Source: Candidatus Omnitrophota bacterium
Lineage (GTDB): Bacteria > Omnitrophota > Gorgyraeia > Zapsychrales > Zapsychraceae
DNA length: 64,000 bases
Direction: 5' to 3'
Assembly (NCBI GenBank): GCA_015233115.1
Contig: JADFYJ010000003.1
Location: forward strand, 104,536 to 168,535
Shown here: piece after piece, positions 26,301-45,369 of the stretch
Position numbering within the stretch: the first letter of the stretch is position 1
Layout: each line of letters opens with the position of its first letter
The notes under the pieces: model-generated
Seen by the model: only the letters and a program-made list of their open reading frames with translations
What the model was told of the DNA's origin: nothing
Databases searched by the model: none
Made by a program: the position numbers and the translations under genes

Positions 26301-29300
26301 TGGCGCCTAAACCAGCAGGGGTTAAAGAAAGATATCTTGCGGCATTGCCAGTCCCGGTACCGCAGCGAATTTCAATAGAAAAATTTTCGACACAAATCAA
26401 AGATCCCCAAACCGCAAAAACTGGTATTGAATTGGTTTTACGCCGGGTAAGACAGTTAATCAACGCTGGCCAATGGATTGGCCCGTTTGGCGGTTATGCG
26501 AAAATTAAAGAATATGCGGTAAATGTTATTAATGATTCCGCAATGATAGGTGATAATTCAAAGGCCCGGTCATATCTTAAAGCGGCAAGAGGACGGGTTT
26601 TGGAATATGATCCGTTTTTGGCGGCATTGATTATCGGTCATGGTGGACCATTGGATTTTGAACGCGATTTGTCAAAGTATTTTAAGTCATTTATAAAAAT
26701 CAAAGATCATTATAATTTACAGTCTTTTAACTTTGGTGAAGAAGTAGCTATAAAAGAATTTGATCGCTACCAGACTATGTCTATTGATGAATTGGGGAGT
26801 GTCGTGAGCGCATCTTTGGGTGCTATAACGCGGTTACAGAATGTTTTAGAATCGGAAGCAAAAAATTTGTCATTGAAAACTTTGAATAAAAACCTTAATG
26901 ATGATGCTGTAAGAAGGGAAAGATATTTCAAAGAATTACAACGGCGCTATACTTCTTTGTTTGCTAATAAAAATTTTTATGAGGATAATAAAGCCGAGAT
27001 TGCGGACTATATAAAACAATATTACGTTAATACAACGATTATGATGCGGGCTTTCTGGTCTAAAATAGAAGCAAAGGGTTGGTTAAATGATGATGACCCG
27101 GAAGTTAAAGAAGCCTGGCGTGACATCAAAGGTTTCTTTGATAAATGGATTCCAAATTTCGAACATTTGGCTATGTTTCTTGACGAAAATTTTGTCAACA
27201 CCTGGAAAAAAGAGGGCGTGACTATTGATAACTTAAATAATTGGTTAGATCCCAAAGATCAAATTTGGGATTCCAAAGGGAATAAATATCAGGTAACTTT
27301 TCATGGAACGCAGAATAAGCTAGAGGCGTTTTGGCCGGACAAATTAGTCCATTTAGCGATCGAACGGTTGATTTCAAATGGATATCATGCCATTGAAAAA
27401 AATGCCGCGGAATTAGATGATCAACTTGAGCATGTTGATTTATATTTAGAACAAAATGAGGAATTGGCACAAAAAGGACAAGTAAAGATTAGTATTGAAA
27501 ATCCCGGACGCATTTCCTATAAAGTTGTCACCAAAGATCAGATTAGTCCGATTATGGATTGGGAGCTGTTTTGTAAATATGTAATTATGAGCGGGTGGGG
27601 ATGGCAAATTAATGAAAATGAAGTGCGTTTAGGGCAATGGGATCAAGAACATTTGAAAGCATATTTTGAAAGTAAGGCTGAACAGCTTTTGCCTATTTTG
27701 GAACATGCCCAAGAACGAAGCGGGTTAGAACTTGATCCTGAAAAGGGTTTGCCGCAGATTTTGTTGTTAGATCACACCAGATTTAATTATTCCCATGGTA
27801 TAGGTTTGCCGTTCGCGGTGCGGGTATTTCAACGCATGGGGGGAAAGGTGGAGATAAAAAATACCGAACACGGAAAAATTCCTTACACCCGTTTTGAAAT
27901 TACCCTGCCTTTATCGCCGGAAAATGTTTTTAATGATCATGCCATGATGGGTAGAGGGCATGATGCGTCATTGGAAGAGATGTATCGTCCAACTCTATGG
28001 TCGGAAAAAGAAAGTCAGTTAATCGGCGCGGAAATCGCGGAAGAAACAGGCTGGGTTGAAAGCACCCCTAAAAACGTCTTTATCCCTCCGGATCTAAAAA
28101 AGCAATTTTCATGGATGGGTGACAATCCTATTACGGTTTATTCGTCTGCTTTCGCGCGTAACATTAAATGCATGGTAAAAATCGGGTATTTATTTTTTAT
28201 GGCTGAGGCGGATTATGACGATTTACCTGCTGACATCCAAACTCAGATTAAACACAATGTCATTTGGACTCAAGAATATTTGCCTAAAACATTATTAGAT
28301 CATCCGCAAGCGTGGGCGACGATTTTAAGTATGATGATGGCTGACTTATCAGCATTTCATACTATCGTTGAAGATCAAGGGGAAGGAATATTATCCGCCG
28401 TAGCCTTGAAATTGGGCGTAGCCAAAGCGTTAATTGTGTCCTCACAGGGTGACCAAAAGGCGACAATTAATAAAAATTTGTACGTCAATGGAATAAACGA
28501 AGAACAGGTTGAAATAGCGGCCGGAACAATGGCGCGGCCTGAATTTTTAGGGGAATATTTAGATGATAGTTTAGGAAAAGTCATTGTTGTATCCAATGGT
28601 GAGGCGCATGGCTCAGAAAAAAGGCAGCAAATTTTTAATTTTATTGAACGGTTTAAGGATGATTTAAATACTAAAGCCGTTATTTTGGGAAGCTATGCTG
28701 TTGATGATGAAGGTGCTCAAGCCATGCGTTTTGATCTGAATTTTGCTTTAAGAAAGGGGCTGGTTACAGACAATATTTTTTTCAAAAGTCCGCTGGTGCA
28801 GGTTGATAATATGGCCGCTCTTTTTATTCCAGTTCATACGTTAGAAATGCCGGCTGGTCTAGAGTCGAAAAATTTTCCCTATGAACAAGATAAAGCCATG
28901 ATTTCAGACGGGCAAACGTTGAGTCAAATAAGCGCTTCTTTGGATAAATTAAATTATGTTTATCAGGCCATGATCCAGCGCAAGGCAGATATGTCTAGAG
29001 TAAAAGCGGCGGATATTCTGGCTGAGGACATATTGCGGCATGATATTCATAAGGTCGTAGTCGTGGGGACGGGATTGACTTATTTACCGGTTTTGTTATC
29101 TTTATCCGGGTTGGAGGTTATTTTTATTGATAATGACGAGGCAAAGAAAGAAGCCATAGATATTTATGTTCATTACTGGGCAGAACAATTTCATGTTAAC
29201 GTAAATTACCGATCTTACAAAGTGGCATTTGGTAGTTCTGAAGCTGCGGCAGCCTTGAAAGAGGATTTAAATAGATTTGATTTGGTTACTATGGTTGATT

Positions 29301-30376
29301 TTTCGGGCGAATATCCGGAAAATTGGGCGGGACAAGTTAAAGCGTTGCTGGAAGGCGGCCAAGGTTATGTGGTTTTAGATGCGGCGGATCAAGACTCGAA
29401 AATAAGTTCTCGGTTTAACCGGGCTTTTAAAAGAGTTGAAGATATAAATGCGCGGTCTTTTTCCGGTGAATTTTCCGTTTACCCCGGAAGCTTGAATAAA
29501 CTTTTTTATGTCAGAGATGAGGCGATGATTTCAGATGAGGGAGACAGAAGTCAGGGATTGAATTCGTTCAGCGCTCCTGAGGAAAAATTGGAATTTGTTT
29601 ATAAAAAAATGATGGCGGAAAACGCTGGTCCAGTCAAAATGAAAGACAAAGCCTATCAACTGTCCAAAGAAATACTACAGCATCATATTCAGAAGGTCGC
29701 GGTAGTGGGAAAAGGATTATATTATCTGCCAATTTTTTTAGCTTTATCCGGATTGGAAGTTGTTTTTATAGACATGGATGCTTCGGTTAAAAATAATATG
29801 GATGCTTATATCAAATATTGCGAGGAAATATTTGGAGTTAGCGCGTTGAACTATCGGTCATATCAATTGGAATTTGGGAGCAGGGAAGGCGGGGTGGCAT
29901 TGCGCGGTGAAATGAATAAATTTGATTTGGTTACTATGGTTGATTTAGTCGGCGGCATCCCTCACGGCGTTGCTGGTTGGGCGGAACAAACCAAGGCATT
30001 ATTAAAAAATGGGAAGGGTTACGCGGTTTTAGATGTCGCGGAATTTTCGAATGAAAAAGCTCAATTAGAGTCTCGCTTTGCGGAGGTTTTTCCAAAATTG
30101 GCAAAAATATCCGGCGCTTATCAGGGAGAATATCTGACATTTCCCAGAAGTACAAATGTCCTTTTTTCCACCGGAGATGAAGAAGTAAACCCGGCTCAGG
30201 AGCGGGCTCCCGGCGGGATTGATTTTAATTCACAGTATTTAAATTTAAAAACCCGCGGCCAATCCGTGGATTTGAGTGTTGACCCCGCTCAACTGCAGCA
30301 AATTAATATTGAAGGTTTAATACCGGTCATCACTTCTATTGCCCTGGTCCCAAATCTTTCAGAAGTCCTTCGTTAG
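23357..30376 (+). CDS. Giant secreted multidomain protein (HAD-like hydrolase domain, His-kinase-type ATPase-like segment, two tandem ~190-aa Rossmann-like repeats)
   Basis: 2339-aa uninterrupted ORF; signal peptide MFKKSIVYFLICIFVLQNIVIPVRAHA; HAD motifs FVFDWDDT and IGDGSSDMRGAREAG; HATPase_c-like HGIGLPFAVRVFQRMGGKVEI; internal duplication with identical 26-mer tttgatttggttactatggttgattt at ~29275 and ~29921. Confidence 0.6.
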   Translation: MFKKSIVYFLICIFVLQNIVIPVRAHAQVSSVSASANVPFVPPLLSGIIVDSQKPFKFDFLLDTGNRKLNQEEMKSISNQLIKYFLAALTIPENKLWVNLSPAEPKRIVDTQLGQTAMGQEMLAEDFLLKKLTASVLSPENEAGRKFWDAVYEKIYENRREKTEERQATKNKATPSIVSNLSALVYPLSSDNFDIPVDILSRVWIVPSEAEIYQNGNKAYVVKARLKVMTERDYLRTQRDEKNKLIQENIIPVLEKEVNEGEQFAPLRQIYYSYILAMWYKKTLHNSIVANYADKQKISGIENGSPANIQKIYDQYLTAFRKGTQGIIKEEYDLNSQQIVPRKYLTGGVILQGKYKVNPDGAMLLKPYGQIFQVAGNFENSNLTDHAMINNLTATNDVPAMSLDYWKLKQMGLRQIGGGEQTQVESMEGWPFVVKSFWPYLTDREKNVAIYGYDVTGKSAGGLVAEFVYVKNYLNEVEKIIMRKAERTVDGELTRLIKEKHIKESKKILDEYFDLLSNLIRRGLFPWDAGFQHIGIIEGKQVVIDPGVFVKINDPLRWNSLALQLESRKETLEDQFHSPELADYFQTLIDAKGFTLNKIAESVGKIYGLDSPQSMPDISQDIAESITAADLENDRAMMVKKSVEAASAAQGRSIQEIPLISQVQKRKPIPDDVKIFVFDWDDTISKAVSEAASYIQAPVLAMLMTGKENSADLTAEEIEHGRQFFMNTLGRTDEQRYQDAIAFSSGKSEHFQIKELLKQYYKNQADFIASHLADWRREMNKHLVPGVLDFILTLREYGYKMYILSANAYLNELKVVDALGMGSYFFELKNVTNAGENNADFSKGAELEKLALREEVRPDQIVMIGDGSSDMRGAREAGTISLAVAEEFNKQLSMAEKFDPHIIIPDFRDVGTLVKILQLKAQQPLVAGDEKIISSSVVLPETRELFHWLNISMERTDVSLPYQLVLRPFFLNKRKTDFEDVMAPKPAGVKERYLAALPVPVPQRISIEKFSTQIKDPQTAKTGIELVLRRVRQLINAGQWIGPFGGYAKIKEYAVNVINDSAMIGDNSKARSYLKAARGRVLEYDPFLAALIIGHGGPLDFERDLSKYFKSFIKIKDHYNLQSFNFGEEVAIKEFDRYQTMSIDELGSVVSASLGAITRLQNVLESEAKNLSLKTLNKNLNDDAVRRERYFKELQRRYTSLFANKNFYEDNKAEIADYIKQYYVNTTIMMRAFWSKIEAKGWLNDDDPEVKEAWRDIKGFFDKWIPNFEHLAMFLDENFVNTWKKEGVTIDNLNNWLDPKDQIWDSKGNKYQVTFHGTQNKLEAFWPDKLVHLAIERLISNGYHAIEKNAAELDDQLEHVDLYLEQNEELAQKGQVKISIENPGRISYKVVTKDQISPIMDWELFCKYVIMSGWGWQINENEVRLGQWDQEHLKAYFESKAEQLLPILEHAQERSGLELDPEKGLPQILLLDHTRFNYSHGIGLPFAVRVFQRMGGKVEIKNTEHGKIPYTRFEITLPLSPENVFNDHAMMGRGHDASLEEMYRPTLWSEKESQLIGAEIAEETGWVESTPKNVFIPPDLKKQFSWMGDNPITVYSSAFARNIKCMVKIGYLFFMAEADYDDLPADIQTQIKHNVIWTQEYLPKTLLDHPQAWATILSMMMADLSAFHTIVEDQGEGILSAVALKLGVAKALIVSSQGDQKATINKNLYVNGINEEQVEIAAGTMARPEFLGEYLDDSLGKVIVVSNGEAHGSEKRQQIFNFIERFKDDLNTKAVILGSYAVDDEGAQAMRFDLNFALRKGLVTDNIFFKSPLVQVDNMAALFIPVHTLEMPAGLESKNFPYEQDKAMISDGQTLSQISASLDKLNYVYQAMIQRKADMSRVKAADILAEDILRHDIHKVVVVGTGLTYLPVLLSLSGLEVIFIDNDEAKKEAIDIYVHYWAEQFHVNVNYRSYKVAFGSSEAAAALKEDLNRFDLVTMVDFSGEYPENWAGQVKALLEGGQGYVVLDAADQDSKISSRFNRAFKRVEDINARSFSGEFSVYPGSLNKLFYVRDEAMISDEGDRSQGLNSFSAPEEKLEFVYKKMMAENAGPVKMKDKAYQLSKEILQHHIQKVAVVGKGLYYLPIFLALSGLEVVFIDMDASVKNNMDAYIKYCEEIFGVSALNYRSYQLEFGSREGGVALRGEMNKFDLVTMVDLVGGIPHGVAGWAEQTKALLKNGKGYAVLDVAEFSNEKAQLESRFAEVFPKLAKISGAYQGEYLTFPRSTNVLFSTGDEEVNPAQERAPGGIDFNSQYLNLKTRGQSVDLSVDPAQLQQINIEGLIPVITSIALVPNLSEVLR

Positions 30377-30492: not shown

Positions 30493-31632
30493 ATGTTTAT
30501 TCAACGTGCCATAGCTGATTCTATTGAAAAACGGATTTTCCAAGATAATAAAATTATTATTCTTTATGGGCCCCGTCAATCAGGAAAAACAACGCTGGTT
30601 AAAAAAATTCTTGAGAATTTTTCTCATTTGAAAATTTTATCAATCAGCGGTGATGAATTAAAATATACAAATATTTTGTCTTCCCAGGATTTCGATAAAC
30701 TAAAATTATTGGTAACCGGTTATGACCTTCTTTTCCTCGATGAAGCTCAGCGGATACCCAACATCGGCATTAACCTAAAAATTCTTCACGATAATTTGCC
30801 TGATTTAAAAATTATTGCCACTGGCTCGTCTTCGTTTGATTTGGCTAATAAAATTAAAGAGCCGTTAACCGGTAGGACTTGGACGTACACGTTATTTCCG
30901 ATTTCAGTTCAAGAGCTGGCAGTTAAAAACAATTCTTTTGAAATTGACCAACTTAAAGAACAACTTTTGGTTTTTGGATCCTATCCCAATATTTTTTCTA
31001 TTGAAAATATTAACAATAAAAAGCAATATTTGATAGAACTCGCGACTTCATATCTTTATAAAGATGTCTTAGAATTCGCGGCGATTAAACACGCTAGTAA
31101 AATTCACGATCTTTTAAAACTGCTGGCTTTTCAAATAGGATCAGAAGTGTCTATCACTGAACTCGCCCTGAATTTAGGCATCAATAAAGATACCGTTAAT
31201 ACATATATTGATTTACTTGAGAAAGCTTTTGTGGTGTTTCGTTTATCCGGATTCAGCCGCAACTTGCGTAAAGAAATTACTAAAATGGATAAAATTTATT
31301 TTTATGATCTTGGCGTGCGAAATATTATCATTGAAAATCTAAATTTTTTAGACAGCCGCGACGATGTCGGTAAATTATGGGAAAATTTTTTGATGATTGA
31401 ACGGAAAAAACATTCCATTTACAATCAAATATTTTCTGGCCAGTATTTTTGGCGTACCTATTCGGGAAGTGAGTTAGACTATATTGAAGAACGGGATGGT
31501 AAATTATTCGGATATGAATTTAAATATTCGTTTAAAAAACATTCGAAAGCCCCTGCGGCTTGGATCAAAACTTATCCGGAAAGTTCGTTTGAGTGTGTTG
31601 ATCAAAATAATTGGCAAAAATTTGTGATTTAA
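30493..31632 (+). CDS. AAA+ ATPase with DUF4143 domain
   Basis: Walker A IIILYGPRQSGKTTL, Walker B LLFLDEAQRIPN, DUF4143-like C-terminus. Confidence 0.65.
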   Translation: MFIQRAIADSIEKRIFQDNKIIILYGPRQSGKTTLVKKILENFSHLKILSISGDELKYTNILSSQDFDKLKLLVTGYDLLFLDEAQRIPNIGINLKILHDNLPDLKIIATGSSSFDLANKIKEPLTGRTWTYTLFPISVQELAVKNNSFEIDQLKEQLLVFGSYPNIFSIENINNKKQYLIELATSYLYKDVLEFAAIKHASKIHDLLKLLAFQIGSEVSITELALNLGINKDTVNTYIDLLEKAFVVFRLSGFSRNLRKEITKMDKIYFYDLGVRNIIIENLNFLDSRDDVGKLWENFLMIERKKHSIYNQIFSGQYFWRTYSGSELDYIEERDGKLFGYEFKYSFKKHSKAPAAWIKTYPESSFECVDQNNWQKFVI

Positions 31633-32207: not shown

Positions 32208-33716
32208 ATGTATTTTAAATTTTTAATTTTTTTTTGTGCCGGCTTATTGAATGTCGGACATACGTTCGCTTCGGATGAAAGCCGTTTATATAATCCGGTG
32301 TCCGTGCCGTATTTTCGGGTATTGGCTCAAGTCCGGGAATCCGAAAGGAAATTGGTTTTTTCTCCTTCCGCGGATTCTTTATTTGATGTTTTAACTCAAG
32401 TGGATGGGTTGCAAAAAGAATTTTTAAAAATTCATTCTAAAGCGGAAGAAGTGGTTGATCCTTCCTTGTTGGAAAAATTAAATCAGGGAATTATTCGGTT
32501 TCAGCAGGATTTAACCAATAACAAAAATATTATTGAGCAAAATAGTGAGCTGGCCCAGGCCCAGGCTAACGCGTTCGCGAGAATATTGGTAGAGTTGAAA
32601 CAATGGCGCAAAGATGTTAAAGGCCGTGCGGAGCAAGTGATCGCTTCATCAAGGAAATCCGGCGGGGATATGGATCCGGTGGCGTTATGGGTTAACCGGA
32701 CAAATGTTTTAAATCTTTTGGTTGAATCTGTACAGGAAATTCAGATCGGAGCGGGTAAAGCATTTTCGAGTGAACAGAAAAAAAATTCGGAAGTTAAAGT
32801 CCATTTGGACCAGGTGGTTGAAACTATTAAAGTATTAAGCGTTAACTTTGATCAACCTGAAGACTTGAAACGTGTTGAAAAAATTAAGTACGCGTTTAAT
32901 GAATTTGACCGGGCGACTGTTCAATATTTAGCTTCATCTCAAAAATTTCAGGAAAAACTCAGCGGCACCTGGGATAGTCTCAATGATTTGGAACGGTTGA
33001 GCGCTGTCGTATTTTCGTCGAAAAAGATCAATGCCTCAGCCGTTGGACCCAACAGTTCCGGCCTTTTGATGACATTATTTATTCCGCTAGCCGTTGGCAT
33101 CGCGATTATTTTGATTGTCATGGCCATTGTCATTAAACCCATGCGTAAAATAGAGCAAATGATAAAAAACACATCTATTTCTCCTGCTGTGAAAGTAGAA
33201 TCGTTGGAGAGATCATCCCCTGCGGTTTTGGCAGCGGAAGGACATTTTCCGACGCCAGAACAGATTAAGATGGTTGAACAGCCTAAATTCGCGCCTATCC
33301 GTGGTTTGCCGCCAGCGGCTAAAAATCAGATTAAGGCCCTTAAAGAAATTGTTTTTCAGGCGAATTTGTTTCCGTTAAGCAAAGTGGTTGATAACGCGCG
33401 ATTAGGAATATATGGAACTGCTTTGGAGAAAGAAGCTCAGGGATTATGCCTGTCAGCGAAAAAATTAACTCAATTAGAACATCAGGCAGAACAAGGGATC
33501 TATGCTGAAACGGAATATTTGAAAAAAGGCGAAGATTATTCTGTTCAGACCCGTGAAGTTTTTGAAGGAATAGTTATTTTAGCCCAAGCGATAAGGGAAA
33601 GTTTTGACCGTTTAGTCAAAGGGGTTAAAGAACAAAGTCATGGCGGGGAGGAAAAATTTCCCTCATCAGAAAATTTAGAGAGAGCCATCGGACAATTCTA
33701 TGAACAGAGGCGATGA
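32208..33716 (+). CDS. Hypothetical bitopic membrane protein (signal peptide, ~270-aa coiled-coil periplasmic part, TM, ~200-aa cytoplasmic part)
   Basis: Signal peptide MYFKFLIFFCAGLLNVGHTFA; central TM LLMTLFIPLAVGIAIILIVMAIVI; overlaps ptsP start by 17 nt. Confidence 0.5.
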   Translation: MYFKFLIFFCAGLLNVGHTFASDESRLYNPVSVPYFRVLAQVRESERKLVFSPSADSLFDVLTQVDGLQKEFLKIHSKAEEVVDPSLLEKLNQGIIRFQQDLTNNKNIIEQNSELAQAQANAFARILVELKQWRKDVKGRAEQVIASSRKSGGDMDPVALWVNRTNVLNLLVESVQEIQIGAGKAFSSEQKKNSEVKVHLDQVVETIKVLSVNFDQPEDLKRVEKIKYAFNEFDRATVQYLASSQKFQEKLSGTWDSLNDLERLSAVVFSSKKINASAVGPNSSGLLMTLFIPLAVGIAIILIVMAIVIKPMRKIEQMIKNTSISPAVKVESLERSSPAVLAAEGHFPTPEQIKMVEQPKFAPIRGLPPAAKNQIKALKEIVFQANLFPLSKVVDNARLGIYGTALEKEAQGLCLSAKKLTQLEHQAEQGIYAETEYLKKGEDYSVQTREVFEGIVILAQAIRESFDRLVKGVKEQSHGGEEKFPSSENLERAIGQFYEQRR

Positions 33717-39675: not shown

Positions 39676-39930
39676 AGTAACCGAGTAACAGAGTAACCGA
39701 GTGACAGAGCAAAACGATTTATGAGAATAAAAATGGTGATTTACTTATAAAAAATGATTGAGTGAAAAAGCGAAAAAGATAAATTAAACGAGAATGAAAA
39801 GATGTAATAAATTTAAAGGTGTTTAAGTTTTGGGATAATATTTTTGTTTATTAGTATTTGGATAATAGTTTACCGACATTTATTTTTACGTTTTTCTTTT
39901 TCGCTCTGTTACTCGGTTACTCGGTTACTT
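39676..39930 (+). repeat. Intergenic inverted-repeat cassette (GTRACMRA family), miaA-hflX
   Basis: L 39676-39709 AGTAACCGAGTAACAGAGTAACCGAGTGACAGAG + CAAAACGATTTATG; R 39904-39930 CTCTGTTACTCGGTTACTCGGTTACTT; inner flanks GAAAAAGCGAAAAAG / CTTTTTCGCTC also mirror. Confidence 0.8.
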
Positions 39931-39945
39931 AAAAGGGGAGCACCT

Positions 39946-41259
39946 ATGGATGATTTGTTGAATTTGAAAGGTTCGAAACAGCGGGTTATTGTTGTTGCCA
40001 TAGATTTTAAGCGGGAGAAAAGGATATGGCAGCCGCAGGAAATTTTGGAAGAAATGAAAGCTTTGGTTGAGGCTTGTGAGTGTGAGGTGGTGGGTGAATT
40101 TATTTGTAAGGTGGACAAGCCTTCTTCTAATAATTTAATTGGTAAAGGTAAAGCGGAAGAAATAAAATTTTTGTGTGATTCGACTGATGGCGTGGATATC
40201 ATTATTTTTAGTGAAGATATAAAAGGAAGTCAACAGCGGAATCTGGAAGAGTTTATCGGTAAATCTGTCATTGACCGCACGCGGCTGATCCTGGATATTT
40301 TCGCGCGCCGAGCGACGACGCGGGAAGGAAAAACTCAAGTGGAGCTGGCTCAGCTTCAATATTTGATGCCGCGTTTAGTCGGCCATGGTGTGGAAATGTC
40401 CCGCTTAGGCGGAGGAATCGGCACCTTGGGGCCAGGCGAAACGAAATTGGAAATTGACCGCCGCAGGATCAGTCAGCGCATTGATAAATTGAAGCGCGAA
40501 TTGAAGGAATTGGTCGCGAACCGCAGTATCACTCGTATTCGCCGGAAAGATAATAAAGTTCCGCTGATCGCTTTAGTCGGTTATACCAACGCGGGTAAGT
40601 CAACATTGATGAATCGTTTGACGGGCGCAGGACAAAGCACTCAAGACGGGTTATTTACGACGCTCGCGTCAGTATCCCGCCAATGGTTGTTACCCAACAA
40701 TCAAAAAACTATTCTTTCAGACACCATCGGTTTTATGCACGACTTGCCTCACCATTTGATTGAATCATTTAAGGCGACTTTAGAAGAAGTGCAACAGGCT
40801 GATCTTTTACTGCATATGGTTGATTTAAGTAATCCCAATTTTAAACATATGTACGAGGCAGTAATTGAGGTGCTGGTTCAATTAAATGCTAATGATAAAT
40901 CCACTATTGTGGTCTTTAATAAAATTGATCAATTACCTGAGCGGTTTAATTTGAAGGACTTAGGAACGAGTTTTGAAAAAGCAATAATGATCTCAGCCAA
41001 GACCGGGGAAAATGTGGACAGTTTAATCAACATGGTCTCACAAATTTTAGCCAAAACCCGCATCGAAGTAAGCGCTTTAATCCCTTTAAATCGTGCTGAT
41101 CTGATAGGCTGGCTTCATGAGAATTCCGACGTGATCACTAAAGAATATAGGGAAGATGGCTGCCATGTCGTATGCCGGATTCCTGAACCAAAAATCGGCC
41201 ATGTAAAGGAATATATTATTGATAATCCATTATTAGACAAGGATTTGGAATCGTATTAA
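39946..41259 (+). CDS. hflX: GTPase HflX
   Basis: G1 LVGYTNAGKSTLMN, G3 DTIGFM, HflX N-domain; start 39946 with AAGGGGAG RBS, upstream ORF-track extension runs through repeat. Confidence 0.8.
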   Translation: MDDLLNLKGSKQRVIVVAIDFKREKRIWQPQEILEEMKALVEACECEVVGEFICKVDKPSSNNLIGKGKAEEIKFLCDSTDGVDIIIFSEDIKGSQQRNLEEFIGKSVIDRTRLILDIFARRATTREGKTQVELAQLQYLMPRLVGHGVEMSRLGGGIGTLGPGETKLEIDRRRISQRIDKLKRELKELVANRSITRIRRKDNKVPLIALVGYTNAGKSTLMNRLTGAGQSTQDGLFTTLASVSRQWLLPNNQKTILSDTIGFMHDLPHHLIESFKATLEEVQQADLLLHMVDLSNPNFKHMYEAVIEVLVQLNANDKSTIVVFNKIDQLPERFNLKDLGTSFEKAIMISAKTGENVDSLINMVSQILAKTRIEVSALIPLNRADLIGWLHENSDVITKEYREDGCHVVCRIPEPKIGHVKEYIIDNPLLDKDLESY

Positions 41260-41365
41260 GTGTGTTGTAAGCGGTTTCTCAAAAATGGAAAAATCTATTG
41301 TCTTTTACCCTGTTTATGGGGGATACTTTAATTAGGATAAGGTTGTCTTTTAATAAGGAGGAGCT

Positions 41366-43498
41366 ATGAAAAAAGGTATGATGAGGGCGATGTTCATTCT
41401 AGGGTTAGGAGTTGCTTTTTTATATTCGGCCTCTTTCGCGTATGCTGATGGAGGGTCATTCACACTATTTTCAACCGTACCATCGGCCATGGCGTCATAC
41501 GATCAAATTAAAATAGTGCCAGCTGTTCATCCGATAGGAACAGACTGTACTAGTGATGGTGTAGGGACTATTTATACAGATTCTAATGGAAATTTATTAA
41601 AATGCGGATCAGCAAAAAAAATTGAGGATATTGATAATGTCTGGACATTTGATTCCGCAAGTCAATTAGTGAATTTGAAATCAGGAGTTCTCAATTATAA
41701 GCTGGGGATTGGGACATCTTCTCCTGGAGCCATACTCGATATTTATAAAAACTCTGCCGGATATTCTGCGCCGATGTTGTTAGTCAATAATCCTGCAGTG
41801 GGAGCAGTTCCGCGTTTACGCTTACAGAGTGCGGATGGCACCGGAGTTAATAAATATGCGGATATTTTTTGGTCAGCAGGTGATTATTCTTTAAATTTGT
41901 CCAACCATGATACTTTTGGTAATTCTGGCATCAATTTTTTAACCTCTGCTGGGCAAAAGATGGTTATTCATAATGACGGCAATGTTGGAATTGGAACGAC
42001 CGCGCCAACTCAAACTTTAAATGTGTTAAATGCTAGTTTTATTCAAGGAGAATTTTCAAGTTCAACAAGTTCTGGTGGGATAAAATTAACTCCATACGCA
42101 GGAGGGCACAGCTGGGAATTTCAAGCTATTGCCAGTGATAGTTCGCCTGCGAATTCACTCATTGTTTATGACCGAGGTGCAGCGGCGTATAGAATGATGA
42201 TTAATAGTTCGGGGAATGTTGGTATCGGGACAACTGCTCCAAGGGGGGGGTTTGATTTGGCAGGAACAGGGGATGTTTATCTGGCTAATAATACAGTAGC
42301 TGGACCTGCAGCCGTACAAAGTATTTATCTTCCTGGTCATATTTATATAGCTCCCTTAAATAATTCGTCAAATGTTTCTTATTTGCAGGCCAGACGGTCA
42401 GATAATAGTGGAAGTACAGAATTACAGGTACGGACATATAATGCGGGTACTTTAGTTGATGCTATGAGAATTAGTAGTTTAGGTAATGTCGGCATTGGAA
42501 CGACTATGCCTCAGAATCAATTACATATCCATAATCCTAATTCGGCAGGCTTGCGTCTGAGCGGTCTTAATAATAATAGCGGTTCTAATTATAACGGAAT
42601 AATATTCGCTAATAGTGAGACAAGCATTAATAATGCTTGGCTTTTAAATCAAATTTCTTGTGTAGGCGGTAATGCGGTGGATAAACAACATATAGATGGC
42701 GGGTTTGTTTTTCAAAAGTGGGCGAATGCCTCGGGCAACCCTGTTGCCAACACATTATTGTTGGATAATTTAGGTAATATAGGAATGAGGATGGGAGAAG
42801 GTGGGCCTAATTATCCTGATACAAATTTTCATATTAACATGATAAGAGATTATACAGGTATTACTTTATCTAACGCTAATAACCCATATGGTGTGGCTGG
42901 GGCTTCAAATTTTCAATCTGGTATACGTTTTAAAGCGTACGAACCGGCTACCTTTGGGTACTGGATGGGAAGAACTGGTTATGATTTTCAGTTTGGATAT
43001 GAATCAACCAATCAACTGACGACTCCCAATATTGCCGCAGCACCGATTATGTCGTTTAAGCATAACAATGGTAGCGGAGTTTGGGATGTGGTGGGGATAG
43101 GAACGCTTGCGCCTTTTGGTCCTTATAAATTGTACGTGCAGGGGAACATAAACGCGCAAGGGGCTTTTTATTCGTGGGGAGGTTGGGTTGCATCGGATAT
43201 GCGTTTGAAAAAGGATGTTCAAACTGTTCCTAATGCGTTACAACGGGTGACACAATTGCGCGGGGTGAATTATAAATGGATTGATGAAGCCCGGGGTAAA
43301 GAAACACAAATGGGCGTGATCGCTCAGGAAGTGGAAAAAGTTTTTCCTGAAGTGGTGCAGACCGATGCCCAAGGGTTTAAATCTGTAGCTTATCAGAATA
43401 TGGTTGGTGCATTGATTGAAGCCGTCAAAGAATTAAATGTTAAAGTGGATAAATTGAGCAAAGAAAACGAGGAGCTCAAAAAGAAAATGGTTAAGTAG
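41366..43498 (+). CDS. Secreted tail-fibre-domain protein with C-terminal S74-type intramolecular chaperone domain
   Basis: Signal peptide MKKGMMRAMFILGLGVAFLYSASFAYA; repeated GNVGIGTTAP motifs; C-terminal SDMRLKKDVQTV...LRGVNYKWID...GVIAQEVEKVFPEVV like endosialidase/tailspike chaperone domains; strong RBS AAGGAGGAG. Confidence 0.65.
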   Translation: MKKGMMRAMFILGLGVAFLYSASFAYADGGSFTLFSTVPSAMASYDQIKIVPAVHPIGTDCTSDGVGTIYTDSNGNLLKCGSAKKIEDIDNVWTFDSASQLVNLKSGVLNYKLGIGTSSPGAILDIYKNSAGYSAPMLLVNNPAVGAVPRLRLQSADGTGVNKYADIFWSAGDYSLNLSNHDTFGNSGINFLTSAGQKMVIHNDGNVGIGTTAPTQTLNVLNASFIQGEFSSSTSSGGIKLTPYAGGHSWEFQAIASDSSPANSLIVYDRGAAAYRMMINSSGNVGIGTTAPRGGFDLAGTGDVYLANNTVAGPAAVQSIYLPGHIYIAPLNNSSNVSYLQARRSDNSGSTELQVRTYNAGTLVDAMRISSLGNVGIGTTMPQNQLHIHNPNSAGLRLSGLNNNSGSNYNGIIFANSETSINNAWLLNQISCVGGNAVDKQHIDGGFVFQKWANASGNPVANTLLLDNLGNIGMRMGEGGPNYPDTNFHINMIRDYTGITLSNANNPYGVAGASNFQSGIRFKAYEPATFGYWMGRTGYDFQFGYESTNQLTTPNIAAAPIMSFKHNNGSGVWDVVGIGTLAPFGPYKLYVQGNINAQGAFYSWGGWVASDMRLKKDVQTVPNALQRVTQLRGVNYKWIDEARGKETQMGVIAQEVEKVFPEVVQTDAQGFKSVAYQNMVGALIEAVKELNVKVDKLSKENEELKKKMVK

Positions 43499-43511
43499 TT
43501 TTTAATATGGG

Positions 43512-43560
43512 CCGCCTTCTTGTGTTCGGAGTATACCAGAGCAGGAAGGCGGTTCTGTTT
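43512..43560 (+). terminator. Candidate intrinsic terminator after tail-fibre-like gene
   Basis: CCGCCTTCTTG ... CAGGAAGGCGG 11-bp stem (one G.U) followed by TTCTGTTTTA. Confidence 0.4.
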
Positions 43561-43567
43561 TATGGAA

Positions 43568-43612
43568 TATAATGTGACAATTTAACAATGTGACAGTGTG
43601 ACAATGTGACAA
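43568..43612 (+). repeat. Unpaired left-type array (GTGACAATG family) after tail-fibre-like gene
   Basis: AATGTGACAATTTAACAATGTGACAGTGTGACAATGTGACAACG + AAAAAACTAAGG. Confidence 0.65.
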
Positions 43613-43696
43613 CGAAAAAACTAAGGCTTGAAAAACAACCGAAACCAAACTAAAAATTGATAACTAAAATTTTAAATTCATGGTAAAATTTTTTTA

Positions 43697-44608
43697 ATGA
43701 AACGAACAGTTTTAATTTCAGTTTTATTCTTATCCTTATCCTTGAGCTCCTCAGTCTTTGCTATTGAAGACGGGATTTATAAAAAATTATATCCTACCGG
43801 CGAAGTGCAAGCCAGATATCATTACAGCCAGGGAGTATTGCACGGACATTTTAATACATATTATAAAAGCGGGCGGTTAGAGAGCGAGGGGACTTTCCAA
43901 AGCGGGGTTATGCAGGCAAGAGCTCGGATCTATTATCCCAGCGGGTACTTGAAATTTGACGGATATTATAAAGATGGTTTACTTGACGGGAAAGCATTGT
44001 TATATTATCCGGCCAAGACCGTTAAAATGGAAATGGTTTACGTTAAGGGCCGGTTGAATGGCAAAGCCCTTGAATATCGGGAAGATGGTTCTTTGGAGTA
44101 TGAGCGGCATTATGTTGATGGGCAGGAACAAGGGGTTGTAAAGTATTTTTCTTCAGAAGGGCATTTGATTCGCCAAGCTCAATTTGTTAATGGAGTTCAA
44201 AAAGGCATTGTGCGTGAATATAATTTGGATGGCCGATTGAAACGGGCTTATGAAGCCATGGATGGAGTGCCGCGCGGAGCAGTAAAAGAATATAGTTTTG
44301 ATGGGGTGACGAAAAGCGCGAATATGAATCAGGGCAAATTGATTGATGGCCCAGTCAAAGAATATTATGAAAACGGCGCGGTGTCGCGGGCGGCACAGAT
44401 TAAAGATGGAGAGCGCAACGGGTCATATGAAGAATTTTATCGTTCTGGGCATTTGATGGTAAAGGGATTTTTAAAACAAGATAAACGGGACGGGATTTTC
44501 ACGTCTTATTATGAAGATGGAAAAGTAAAAAATAAAACGCAATTTGAAATGGGGAAGAAAATTATCAGTAAGAATTATGATGAATCAGGAAAGTTGATAT
44601 TTAAATAA
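43697..44608 (+). CDS. Secreted MORN-variant repeat protein (YwqK-like)
   Basis: Signal peptide; tandem YYxSGxLxxEGxYxxG repeats throughout. Confidence 0.55.
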   Translation: MKRTVLISVLFLSLSLSSSVFAIEDGIYKKLYPTGEVQARYHYSQGVLHGHFNTYYKSGRLESEGTFQSGVMQARARIYYPSGYLKFDGYYKDGLLDGKALLYYPAKTVKMEMVYVKGRLNGKALEYREDGSLEYERHYVDGQEQGVVKYFSSEGHLIRQAQFVNGVQKGIVREYNLDGRLKRAYEAMDGVPRGAVKEYSFDGVTKSANMNQGKLIDGPVKEYYENGAVSRAAQIKDGERNGSYEEFYRSGHLMVKGFLKQDKRDGIFTSYYEDGKVKNKTQFEMGKKIISKNYDESGKLIFK

Positions 44609-45300
44609 TGTTGATTGTTATTTTAGTCATAATAGCGGTGATATCCATTGTCGGATTGCTCGTGGTCAGCGTACCAAGCCTGGGTGACAAAAAAAACCGT
44701 ATGGTTTTTTTGAATGAAATGGCTGAGCTTTTGGATGGCCAGCTGAAGCCGTGGGAAGAGAGGGAAGGAGCGTTTCGGATTTTTTTTAAGTTTCAGGATC
44801 GGGATTTTATTTTGGAAGATATTTTAGAGCATGGGTTGAAAATAGATGTGAATCGTGCTTATGTTCGTTTGGCTGTCGAGGGTAGCTTTTTGATGACTTT
44901 CGCGGAAATGGAAAAAGCCAGAATTATCCGTCAGGAAAAACCGGAATCTGTTCCAGCTCTTCATGCCATGTTAAGAAAAATCGAAGTGGTAGCGACTTTG
45001 CCTGGGGAGCTGGCAGGTTTGGAAATTCACACAAATGATCATTTTATCGTTAATCAATTATTAAAAGAAAAAAAATTTCTTAAAATTCTATCCCAATTAA
45101 AAAATAAAGATACCCGCGGTATCGTTTCTATGCCGGTCAGGTTTTACGAAGGATTTTTATCTTTGGATATTTATGCCAAAGGCCCCCGCCAGCCGAATTT
45201 ATTAACTTTTTATACCCGCCCTCATGAGATCAACAAGTATTTTGCCATCATGATTGAGTTGGCCAATATTGCTCAAGTAATTTCCAAAAAGTATGAATAG
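44608..45300 (+). CDS. Hypothetical protein with N-terminal TM anchor
   Basis: 230 aa, start overlaps previous stop (TAATG); no recognisable motifs. Confidence 0.45.
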   Translation: MLIVILVIIAVISIVGLLVVSVPSLGDKKNRMVFLNEMAELLDGQLKPWEEREGAFRIFFKFQDRDFILEDILEHGLKIDVNRAYVRLAVEGSFLMTFAEMEKARIIRQEKPESVPALHAMLRKIEVVATLPGELAGLEIHTNDHFIVNQLLKEKKFLKILSQLKNKDTRGIVSMPVRFYEGFLSLDIYAKGPRQPNLLTFYTRPHEINKYFAIMIELANIAQVISKKYE

Positions 45301-45308
45301 AAATTTTA

Positions 45309-45336
45309 TTGACAAGACGGATTTTCTTATTATAAT
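45309..45336 (+). promoter_or_regulatory. Consensus sigma-A promoter of hrcA operon
   Basis: TTGACA (45309-45314), 16-nt spacer, TATAAT (45331-45336). Confidence 0.6.
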
Positions 45337-45342
45337 TCTTTT

Positions 45343-45369
45343 TTAGCAAACTAGTGTAAGGAGTGCTAA
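45343..45369 (+). promoter_or_regulatory. CIRCE operator (HrcA binding site)
   Basis: TTAGCAAAC-N9-GAGTGCTAA vs consensus TTAGCACTC-N9-GAGTGCTAA (7/9 + 9/9), placed just downstream of the -10. Confidence 0.7.

What the first reader, a model, noticed from the sequence alone, without database searches (positions are those of the whole stretch)
41366..45300. Cluster of secreted surface proteins headed by a tail-fibre-like protein with a phage-type intramolecular chaperone domain
The 710-aa protein has a signal peptide, many GNVGIGTTAP-type repeats (tail-fibre/collar-like) and a C-terminal S74-type auto-cleaving chaperone domain (SDMRLKKDVQTV...GVNYKWID...GVIAQEVEKVFPEVV). This domain is typical of phage tailspikes and endosialidases, yet no phage genes are nearby. 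It is followed by a secreted MORN/YwqK-repeat protein and an N-terminally anchored hypothetical protein, with overlapping stop and start (TAATG). This could be a domesticated phage-fibre-like adhesin or a cell-cell attachment module.
Basis: partly seen in the sequence, partly recalled or inferred. Interest (0 to 1): 0.55.

Follow-up and report, generated by a model that had tools for sequence, protein, structure and literature searches.

The report
Self-cleaving phage-like surface fibre in Omnitrophota
A bacterium of the uncultured phylum Omnitrophota carries, among ordinary housekeeping genes, a secreted fibre protein built like a phage tail fibre with a self-cleaving folding domain; it belongs to a class of adhesins already described in the predator Bdellovibrio and already listed for this phylum.

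Summary
ORF 41366-43498 encodes a 710-aa protein with a Sec-type signal peptide, three exact and three degenerate GNVGIGTTAP-type loops, and a C-terminal Peptidase_S74 domain. The SDxxxK catalytic pair (S610, K615) is invariant in a 40-sequence alignment. No other gene in the 64-kb window is phage-like.

An identical NCBI protein is named 'tail fiber domain-containing protein [Candidatus Omnitrophica bacterium]'. The best solved-structure matches, by sequence and by fold, are the Bdellovibrio 'mosaic adhesive trimer' (MAT) fibres of Caulton et al. 2024. Their Supplementary Table S3 already lists a 713-aa S74-like MAT from Omnitrophica. This is therefore a new member of a known kind.

Two points go beyond the annotation:
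- The N-terminal module (28-110, with a conserved Cys pair) is not the conserved MAT N-terminal domain (hhalign probability 0.3%).
- In a sister genome with identical gene order, the neighbours are 62-77% identical, but the fibre shaft and tip are only 26-29% identical. The S74 domain is 76% identical.

The 'cluster' reading is weak. A conserved terminator hairpin separates the fibre from the MORN gene. The MORN and 230-aa proteins accompany no other fibre locus examined, and the 230-aa protein is a lineage-restricted orphan.

The parts
41355..41361 (+). Shine-Dalgarno-like AAGGAGG, 4 nt before the fibre ATG
   Evidence: Read directly from the sequence.
41366..41446 (+). Signal peptide of the fibre precursor (residues 1-27, predicted cleavage AYA|DGG)
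   Evidence: n/h/c layout and hydropathy 2.5. The sister orthologue has the same layout. No signal-peptide predictor was available.
41447..41695 (+). N-terminal module (residues 28-110) with conserved C61/C80 pair; presumed cell-proximal anchor
   Evidence: Shared with the sister orthologue and with P0124, which has two copies. C34, S36, G40, C53 and W66 of the module are invariant. It is not related to the Bdellovibrio/Bacteroidota MAT N-terminal domain: hhalign probability 0.3% and no phmmer hit. AF2 pLDDT is below 40.
41696..42565 (+). Shaft (residues 111-400): beta-rich repeat units, each closed by a GNVGIGTTAP-x3-L capping loop (111, 205, 283, 373)
   Evidence: Sequence hits to Bd2133 (8ond), Bd3182 (8ojn/8onc) and Bd2439 (8ol4/8onf). 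Foldseek top hits are the same structures, probability 1.00. PHROG tail-fibre families cover 168-703. pLDDT is 70-84 in the repeat units.
42566..43192 (+). Distal 'tip' region (residues 401-609), with degenerate loops at 470 and 574; presumed ligand-binding end exposed after cleavage
   Evidence: Outside the sister genome it has no tblastn match in the 80 loci then held. Identity to the sister is 26-41%. Its role as the binding end is inferred from S74 fibres.
43193..43498 (+). S74 intramolecular chaperone / autoprotease domain (residues 610-710) with S610/K615, ending in a long helix; includes the stop codon
   Evidence: Pfam PF13884 E 8.8e-19. S610 and K615 are invariant. Profile hits to 6f45, MyRF 7dc3, 3gud and the T5 fibre 8hqz. 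pLDDT is about 90 or higher, with helix 676-709. Identity to the sister is 76%.
43513..43562 (+). Hairpin (43513-43551) plus T-rich tail: probable intrinsic terminator of the fibre gene
   Evidence: Free energy -27.8 kcal/mol, z -4.7. 37 of 39 nt are identical in the sister genome, while the surrounding spacer is largely unalignable. It occurs once in the window. The consensus scan missed it because the loop is long.
43573..43611 (+). Four direct TGTGACA repeats in the spacer upstream of the MORN gene (possible regulator site)
   Evidence: Four of the ten plus-strand TGTGACA in the window lie within these 39 nt. They are not conserved in the sister genome. Function is unknown.
43697..44608 (+). 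Secreted MORN_2 (YwqK-type) repeat protein, 303 aa
   Evidence: Pfam MORN_2 E 1.8e-28, five stretches. Signal-peptide-like N-terminus. Identity to the sister is 64%. A link to the fibre is not established.
44608..45300 (+). 230-aa orphan protein with an N-terminal transmembrane helix; translationally coupled to the MORN gene (TAATG)
   Evidence: Only two members among 5.8 billion protein clusters. No family or fold match.

Best explanation
The 710-aa gene encodes a chromosomal, secreted, trimeric fibre adhesin of the phage-tail-fibre / Bdellovibrio MAT type.

Proposed mechanism:
1. The precursor is exported by the Sec pathway and its signal peptide is removed after A27. This is inferred from sequence.
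2. The C-terminal S74 domain (610-710) acts as an intramolecular chaperone. It nucleates trimerisation of the beta-helical shaft from the C-terminal end. This is inferred from the family.
3. The domain then cuts itself off between A609 and S610, using S610 and K615. The domain and the catalytic pair are shown here; cleavage itself is not tested.
4. This releases an 11.5-kDa fragment and leaves a 61-kDa mature fibre (28-609). Its distal tip (about 401-609) becomes exposed for ligand binding.
5. The N-terminal Cys-pair module (28-110) holds the fibre at the cell surface. This is inferred.

The shaft and tip diverge far faster than the neighbouring genes. Omnitrophota are suspected predators or parasites. 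The most likely role is therefore recognition of, and attachment to, surface glycans of other cells. The downstream MORN and 230-aa genes are most likely a separate transcription unit.
For: - Domain identity: Pfam S74, with S610/K615 invariant. The S74 profile hits solved chaperone domains, including 3gud, whose chain begins exactly at SDERHK. That fixes the cut site just before the Ser.
- Shaft identity: the repeats align by sequence to Bd2133, Bd3182 and Bd2439. The 11 best Foldseek PDB hits are all Bdellovibrio MAT fibres. 335 viral S74 fibre models match at E<=1e-3, many over 580-1000 alignment columns.
- Experimental precedent: MAT biology (surface display, S74 self-cleavage blocked by Ser-to-Ala, glycan binding) is shown for Bdellovibrio. 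An Omnitrophica 713-aa S74-like MAT is listed in their Table S3.
- Chromosomal context: the housekeeping gene order is conserved in sister MAG GCA_015233195.1, and the window holds no phage genes.
- Unequal divergence between the two genomes: HflX 77%, MiaA 64%, MORN 64%, p230 62%; fibre residues 28-500 26-29%; S74 76%.
- Transcription: a conserved terminator hairpin follows the fibre gene.
- Lifestyle: Seymour et al. 2023 propose predatory or parasitic lifestyles for most Omnitrophota.
Against: - The defining conserved N-terminal domain of Bdellovibrio MATs is absent. Anchoring to the surface is therefore unsupported by homology.
- The AF2 model is a monomer with mean pLDDT 59, and the N-terminus and tip are unmodelled. 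Trimerisation was not modelled.
- Only one copy was seen, whereas Bdellovibrio has 21. The rest of this genome could not be searched.
- The rapid-divergence argument rests on a single genome pair.
- How a Sec-exported fibre crosses the outer membrane is unknown, in Bdellovibrio too.
- No expression, localisation or ligand data exist.
- The lifestyle of this particular MAG is unknown.
Confidence: 0.65

Rival explanations
1. The fibre, the secreted MORN-repeat protein and the membrane-anchored 230-aa protein form one functional module. The 230-aa protein would be the membrane anchor or assembly factor and the MORN protein a periplasmic or surface partner. This is essentially the first reader's 'attachment module'.
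For: The three genes are adjacent, on the same strand and lineage-specific, lying between hflX and the hrcA operon. The same trio occurs in the sister genome. MORN and the 230-aa gene overlap (TAATG), so they are co-translated. A weak NCBIfam match links the MORN protein to a Leptospira adhesin family, at 58.6 bits against a cut-off of 250.
Against: A strong conserved hairpin with a T-run and a 198-bp spacer separate the fibre from MORN. None of 79 other fibre loci has MORN or p230 nearby. The sister genome is syntenic for every gene in the region, so the adjacency carries little information. p230 has no detectable relatives or fold, and its charge distribution suggests a cytoplasmic domain.
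Confidence: 0.15
2. It is a general-purpose surface fibre, for example for attachment to particles, biofilm formation, self-aggregation or as a decoy for phages. Its fast divergence would reflect phage or grazer pressure on an exposed antigen rather than prey or host range.
For: S74-terminated fibres with signal peptides are common in non-predatory lineages. The top 79 of at least 477 genome hits include about 36 Bacteroidota, plus Desulfobacterales, Parabeggiatoa/Thiomargarita and CPR. Caulton et al. also note MATs in strains 'predatory and otherwise'. Only one copy was seen here.
Against: Bdellovibrionota are strongly over-represented among the best S74 matches: 17 of 79 loci, out of 185,579 species. 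Predation or parasitism is proposed for the phylum.
Confidence: 0.17
3. It is a leftover phage tail-fibre gene (prophage remnant, tailocin or injection-system fibre) with no cellular function.
For: Many PHROG tail-fibre families match and hundreds of viral models match. The gene's GC3 of 0.32 is below that of its neighbours, 0.39-0.44.
Against: No phage, baseplate, sheath or integrase gene occurs in 64 kb. The ORF is intact and carries a signal peptide, which phage fibres such as those of L081 lack. The orthologue sits at the same housekeeping position in a genome whose HflX is only 77% identical, so the gene has been retained through speciation with its catalytic pair intact. Overall GC equals the window mean.
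Confidence: 0.03

Closest known systems
Bdellovibrio bacteriovorus MAT (mosaic adhesive trimer) fibres, S74 subgroup, e.g. Bd3182 (Caulton et al. 2024, PMC10769870)
   Same: Signal peptide. Beta-helical shaft with G-x-V-G-I-G-T-x-x-P-x3-L capping loops, with direct sequence and Foldseek matches to Bd2133, Bd3182, Bd1334 and Bd2439. C-terminal S74 domain with SDxxxK. Chromosomal, not prophage. An Omnitrophica S74-like MAT of 713 aa is in their Table S3.
   Different: It lacks the conserved ~130-aa MAT N-terminal domain (xPxxFxYQGxL...SVPYA) that follows the signal peptide in all five full-length Bdellovibrionales ORFs among them and in 30 of 79 genome loci. A Cys-pair module takes its place. 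It is shorter (710 aa against a typical ~1000). Only a single copy was seen, against 21.
Phage S74 tail fibres and tailspikes (K1F endosialidase chaperone 3GW6, T5 L-shaped fibre, S16 gp37 6F45, phi29-type neck appendage 3GUD)
   Same: The same C-terminal intramolecular chaperone/autoprotease with a Ser-Lys pair. The same repeat shaft occurs in many cyanophage and uncultured-phage fibres.
   Different: It has a Sec signal peptide and a non-phage N-terminus instead of a baseplate or tail attachment domain. It is encoded between hflX and hrcA with no virion genes nearby.
Metazoan Myelin Regulatory Factor (MyRF) ICA domain (7DC3)
   Same: Homologous S74-type self-cleaving trimerisation domain.
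   Different: MyRF is a membrane-tethered transcription factor. It shares only the chaperone domain and one capping loop.
MORN_2 / YwqK-family repeat proteins (PF07661)
   Same: The 303-aa neighbour has five MORN_2 stretches.
   Different: It is secreted (signal peptide). No toxin partner or other context indicates a function.

Membership tests
Peptidase_S74 / intramolecular chaperone auto-processing domain | Profile match above the curated threshold, at the C-terminus | tested here: met
   PF13884 at 68 bits against a cut-off of 22, residues 610-664 of 710. Profile hits to solved S74 domains.
Peptidase_S74 / intramolecular chaperone auto-processing domain | Catalytic Ser-Lys pair in an S-D-x-x-x-K motif | tested here: met
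   S610-D-M-R-L-K615. Both residues are invariant in a 40-sequence alignment. The sister orthologue has S-D-V-T-L-K.
Peptidase_S74 / intramolecular chaperone auto-processing domain | Compact domain ending in a long helix that forms the trimeric coiled coil | tested here: met
   AF2 pLDDT is about 90 or higher for 620-710, with helix 676-709. This is a monomer model only.
Peptidase_S74 / intramolecular chaperone auto-processing domain | Autocatalytic release of the domain after trimer folding | not testable with these tools
   Needs expression of wild type against an S610A mutant.
MAT superfamily (Caulton et al. 2024) | N-terminal signal peptide | tested here: met
   Sequence layout and hydropathy. 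No dedicated predictor was available.
MAT superfamily (Caulton et al. 2024) | Conserved beta-rich ~130-aa domain immediately after the signal peptide | tested here: not met
   The MAT N-terminal profile was built from 16 sequences, five of them Bdellovibrionales. Against the module of this protein, its sister and P0124, hhalign gives probability 0.3%. phmmer of residues 28-135 gives no hit to the N-terminus of any of the 79 fibres, and residues 28-111 searched against 1.84 billion representatives give only P0124 as a credible relative. A structural comparison was not possible, because no solved structure exists and this model has pLDDT below 40 there.
MAT superfamily (Caulton et al. 2024) | Beta-helical fibre shaft with capping loops, homologous to solved MAT fragments | tested here: met
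   phmmer hits to 8ond, 8ojn and 8ol4. Foldseek ranks 1-11 are all MAT structures, probability 1.00.
MAT superfamily (Caulton et al. 2024) | Trimeric assembly along the whole length | not tested
   Only a monomer prediction was run. No multimer tool was available.
MAT superfamily (Caulton et al. 2024) | Multi-gene family with a conserved base and diversified tips in one genome | tested here: inconclusive
   There is no paralogue in the 64-kb window. The genome is not in the searchable collections. The tip diverges strongly between sister genomes.
MAT superfamily (Caulton et al. 2024) | Display on the cell surface and binding to prey glycans | not testable with these tools
   Experimental.
Prophage or tailocin tail fibre | Encoded next to other virion, baseplate or lysis genes | tested here: not met
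   No phage structural gene was found in the Pfam and PHROG scans of the window's main ORFs. One ORF (32208-33716) has no hit in either library. The same housekeeping gene order occurs in the sister genome.
S-layer / housekeeping envelope protein | SLH, S-layer or other envelope-family domains | tested here: not met
   Pfam and NCBIfam give no such match.
MORN_2 (YwqK-type) repeat proteins (second gene) | Several PF07661 repeats above threshold | tested here: met
   95.7 bits against a cut-off of 29.6, five stretches.

The most novel reading that the evidence does not exclude
Omnitrophota of this lineage carry a distinct branch of the phage-derived fibre adhesins. The shaft and S74 chaperone of MAT or phage fibres are fused to a lineage-specific N-terminal Cys-pair anchor module. 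The gene sits at a fixed chromosomal site (hflX-hrcA), where the exposed part evolves several times faster than the surrounding genome. The fibre would then determine which host or prey cells these uncultured, possibly predatory or parasitic bacteria attach to, and the N-terminal module would point to a surface-anchoring partner different from the unknown one in Bdellovibrio.
Probability: 0.3. Interest if true: 0.55.

Novelty: new member of a known kind. Interest (0 to 1): 0.3.

Why it matters
Omnitrophota have no cultured isolates. Their proposed predatory or parasitic lifestyle rests on indirect evidence: Tad and type IV pili, giant ORFs and isotope uptake. A surface fibre of the same class that Bdellovibrio uses to recognise prey would be a concrete, testable candidate for host recognition. 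The mature tip (residues about 401-609) could be expressed and used as a probe on glycan arrays or on environmental cells to look for the partner organism. Its different N-terminal module may also help to find how such fibres are anchored, which is unsolved even in Bdellovibrio. As a discovery it is modest. The protein is already annotated as a tail-fibre-domain protein, the class is published, and an Omnitrophica example is already tabulated.

Tried and rejected
- **Close relatives in GTDB species genomes.** A scan with the whole fibre found none, so the genome itself is not in that collection and paralogues elsewhere in it could not be counted.
- **Full-length alignment as a locus query.** An S74-only alignment worked.
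- **Recovering full-length Bdellovibrio MATs.** A protein search with a Bd3182 fragment rebuilt from a PDB alignment found nothing and used the last such search. Bdellovibrio genes were taken from the genome loci instead.
- **Metagenome scan for lineage relatives.** A scan with the ours-plus-sister S74 alignment gave only four distant loci, one of them a phage-like triple-fibre locus.
- **The 230-aa protein.** It has no Pfam, PHROG, NCBIfam or PADLOC hit, only two members in the protein database, a poor AF2 model (pLDDT 56) and no Foldseek match below E 0.3. Its function remains unknown.
- **RNA searches.** Rfam and tRNA scans of the window were empty, so the conserved hairpin is not a known RNA family.
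- **Anti-phage defence role for the trio.** PADLOC gave no hit.
- **Prophage reading.** Rejected on context (see rival explanations).
- **Source of the MAG.** I suspected a magnetotactic-bacteria survey, but the paper text holds no matching accession, so this is not asserted.
- **Slip in one calculation.** The hflX line is out of frame and should be ignored. One search gives the correct 77%.

Full report
**Observation**

The three ORFs exist as described: 41366-43498 (710 aa), 43697-44608 (303 aa) and 44608-45300 (230 aa). The last two share one base (TAATG).

- The 710-aa protein matches Pfam Peptidase_S74 at residues 610-664 (E 8.8e-19, 68 bits against a cut-off of 22).
- More than 25 PHROG tail-fibre families match it. 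Most cover residues about 590-709, and some cover 168-703.
- The N-terminus has the charge/hydrophobic/AxA layout of a Sec signal peptide, with predicted cleavage AYA|DGG after residue 27.
- There are three exact GNVGIGTT[AM]P loops (205, 283, 373) and three degenerate ones (111, 470, 574). 'Many' is therefore slightly generous.
- The motif S610-D-M-R-L-K615 fits the SDxxxK catalytic signature. In a 40-sequence alignment of full-length relatives the only invariant columns are S610, K615, A653 and P661.
- The 303-aa protein has five MORN_2 stretches (E 1.8e-28) and a signal-peptide-like start. The 230-aa protein has an N-terminal hydrophobic helix and no family match.

**Context**

All of the main ORFs lie on the + strand. 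Upstream of the fibre are a PtsP-like enzyme, RNase T, RsmE, a SPOR/TPR protein, MiaA and HflX. Downstream are HrcA, GrpE, DnaK, DnaJ, VanZ, DUF1015, AccD, an ABC ATPase, two GGDEF proteins, a ROK kinase and LptD. Further upstream is a purine-biosynthesis block. PHROG scans of the remaining unassigned proteins found no virion genes.

The hrcA operon has its own perfect TTGACA-16-TATAAT promoter (45309-45336). An inverted repeat follows at 45343-45369 and resembles the CIRCE operator; that resemblance rests on my own knowledge of the consensus. The fibre's GC content equals the window mean (0.407 against 0.412). Its GC3 is lower, 0.32 against 0.39-0.44 in the neighbours.

**Identity**

An identical protein is in NCBI as 'MAG: tail fiber domain-containing protein [Candidatus Omnitrophica bacterium]', on a 169-kb contig.

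- A sequence search of the PDB gave a T4-like long-tail-fibre chaperone (6f45) for the C-terminus. For the repeats it gave Bdellovibrio bacteriovorus fibres: Bd2133 (8ond), Bd3182 (8ojn/8onc) and Bd2439 (8ol4/8onf).
- An AF2 monomer model has low overall confidence (mean pLDDT 59). It is confident for the S74 domain (about 90 or higher) and moderate (70-84) for the repeat units.
- The 11 best Foldseek PDB hits for that model are all Bdellovibrio fibres (E 3e-6 to 9e-3, probability 1.00). T4 gp34 and the K1F chaperone 3GW6 follow. TM-scores are low, as expected when a monomer model of an extended trimeric fibre is superposed.
- In the viral library, 335 models match at E<=1e-3. These are mostly 'intramolecular chaperone auto-processing domain' fibre proteins, aligned over most of their length.
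- An S74 profile also hits MyRF (7dc3), the T5 L-shaped fibre (8hqz) and a neck-appendage chaperone (3gud). The 3gud chain begins exactly at SDERHK, which places the cut just before the serine, here between A609 and S610.

**What is known**

Caulton et al. [quoted passage not shown]

- It has 21 secreted trimeric fibres. All share a ~130-aa beta-rich domain after the signal peptide, have a beta-helical shaft with capping loops, and carry varied tips.
- Thirteen end in an S74 domain with SDxxxK. Self-cleavage was shown for Bd3182 and abolished by S782A.
- The fibres are displayed on the predator surface, and one binds prey glycans.
- Supplementary Table S3 lists MATs from other predator-associated lineages. 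It includes a 713-aa 'S74-like' protein from a Candidatus Omnitrophica bacterium (A0A2H0LB00), with a note citing Seymour et al. 2023.
- Seymour et al. propose that most Omnitrophota are predators or parasites, but they do not mention such fibres.

**Membership test**

A scan of GTDB species genomes with an S74 alignment gave at least 477 confirmed loci. The best 79 include 17 Bdellovibrionota, among them two loci in B. bacteriovorus strain s4. They also include about 36 Bacteroidota, six CPR, one Omnitrophota and assorted others.

I reconstructed the fibre ORFs. In 30 of the 79, including the five complete Bdellovibrionales ORFs that carry the motif (L012, L014, L026, L049, L065), a conserved domain begins directly after the signal peptide (xPxxFxYQGxL ... 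SVPYA). This is the MAT N-terminal domain.

The protein here does not have that domain.

- phmmer of residues 28-135 finds nothing at the N-termini of those fibres.
- A profile-profile comparison gives probability 0.3%.
- Instead, residues 28-110 form a module with two conserved cysteines (C61, C80).
- An exhaustive search of 1.84 billion representatives found that module in only one other protein, P0124, which has two copies. It is also present in the sister orthologue.
- The start of the module (L-x-T-x-x-P-A-P) is also seen in the one other Omnitrophota fibre recovered, L073.

So the shaft and chaperone are of MAT or phage type, but the presumed anchoring end is different.

**Comparison with a sister genome**

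The 230-aa protein has only one relative in 5.8 billion protein clusters, at 62% identity. That relative lies on GCA_015233195.1, in the same gene order: ptsP, rnt, rsmE, SPOR, miaA, hflX, a 714-aa S74 fibre, a 305-aa MORN protein and a 229-aa protein.

| Protein or region | Identity between the two genomes |
|---|---|
| HflX | 77% |
| MiaA | 64% |
| MORN protein | 64% |
| 230-aa protein | 62% |
| SPOR protein | 56% |
| Fibre overall | 33-38% |
| Fibre residues 28-500 | 26-29% |
| Fibre residues 501-570 | 41% |
| Fibre residues 571-609 | 53% |
| S74 domain | 76% |

The hflX line is out of frame and should be ignored.

The two fibres are colinear, so this is in-place divergence of the exposed part with a conserved chaperone. 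That pattern is expected of a receptor-binding or antigenic surface fibre. It rests on one genome pair, and substitutions are too saturated for a dN/dS estimate.

**Is it a cluster?**

- A hairpin lies directly after the fibre stop codon (43513-43551; -27.8 kcal/mol, z -4.7) and is followed by a T-rich run. 37 of its 39 nt are identical in the sister genome, although the rest of the spacer is largely unalignable. It is most simply a terminator, which makes the fibre monocistronic.
- The MORN and 230-aa genes overlap and form a second unit. Four TGTGACA repeats lie upstream of it in this genome only.
- None of the 79 other fibre loci has a MORN or p230 homologue within 5 kb.
- The 230-aa protein has no predicted fold match. 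Its charge distribution suggests that its bulk is cytoplasmic.
- I therefore treat the trio as neighbours. A functional link is not excluded (confidence about 0.15).

**Mechanism**

The steps below are marked as shown or inferred.

1. Sec export and signal cleavage. Inferred from sequence.
2. Trimerisation driven by the S74 domain. Inferred from the family.
3. Self-cleavage at A609|S610 by S610/K615. The domain and catalytic pair are shown; the activity is not.
4. Release of an 11.5-kDa fragment, leaving a 61-kDa mature fibre (masses).
5. The N-terminal Cys-pair module sits at the cell surface and the tip (about 401-609) binds a ligand on another cell. Inferred by analogy with MATs and from the divergence pattern.

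**Verdict**

The core of its interpretation, a domesticated phage-type fibre adhesin, is supported. It is not new in kind: the gene is already annotated as a tail-fibre-domain protein, the class is published, and an Omnitrophica example is tabulated.

What this analysis adds is the different N-terminal module, the conserved chromosomal position, the marked divergence of the exposed part, and the lack of support for a three-gene module. Interest is modest (0.3).

Noticed in passing
window 23357-30376 (+): A 2339-aa ORF whose only Pfam match is a HAD-type hydrolase domain at residues 673-909. The rest has no Pfam or PHROG hit. Omnitrophota are known for very long ORFs of unknown function.
   Followed up: partly
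window 30493-31632 (+): An AAA_14/DUF4143 ATPase that matches the PADLOC candidate defence family PDC-S01 almost end to end (E 8e-147). The next ORF, 32208-33716 (502 aa), has no family hit at all and overlaps the start of the ptsP-like gene.
   Followed up: partly
window 43573-43611 (+): Four direct TGTGACA repeats within 39 nt, in the spacer upstream of the MORN gene. That is four of the ten plus-strand copies in the whole window. They are absent from the sister genome's spacer. This may be a regulator binding site.
   Followed up: partly
window 43513-43551 and L001 8763-8801: The hairpin after the fibre gene is 37 of 39 nt identical between two genomes whose fibre proteins are only about 35% identical. 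The loop is conserved as well as the stem. That is more conservation than a plain terminator needs. There is no Rfam match.
   Followed up: partly
window 45309-45369 (+): A perfect sigma-70 consensus promoter (TTGACA-16-TATAAT) is followed six bases later by the inverted repeat TTAGCAAAC-N9-GAGTGCTAA, ahead of hrcA-grpE-dnaK-dnaJ. It resembles the CIRCE heat-shock operator; the consensus is recalled from my own knowledge.
   Followed up: partly
window 1-64000: All 47 main ORFs of at least 120 aa are on the + strand. The five on the - strand all lie inside longer + strand ORFs. GC skew is positive in every 2-kb bin and the cumulative skew rises monotonically, consistent with one leading-strand replichore arm with extreme gene-strand bias. 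No tRNA or Rfam hit occurs in 64 kb.
   Followed up: no
window 39844-41259 (+): The mechanical hflX ORF starts at a TTG (471 aa). The sister orthologue aligns only from M35, so the real start is probably the ATG at 39946 (437 aa).
   Followed up: yes
window 41366-43498 (+): The fibre gene has the lowest GC3 of the nine genes compared (0.32 against 0.39-0.44), although its overall GC is average. This could reflect its Gly/Asn/Ser/Thr-rich composition or a foreign origin.
   Followed up: no
L081 17-4501 (metagenome contig MDTC01075111.1): Three tandem fibre genes without signal peptides. The last one has GNVGIGTT loops and an S74 domain with RGVNFKWIDEERG, the same local motif as the Omnitrophota fibre. 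This looks like a phage fibre locus and is an example of the viral counterpart.
   Followed up: partly
L014, L049, L012, L065, L026 and 25 other genome loci: The MAT N-terminal domain (xPxxFxYQGxL ... SVPYA) directly after the signal peptide is shared by Bdellovibrio and many Bacteroidota, Balneolaceae and Dyadobacter S74 fibres. It is therefore far more widespread than predators alone.
   Followed up: partly
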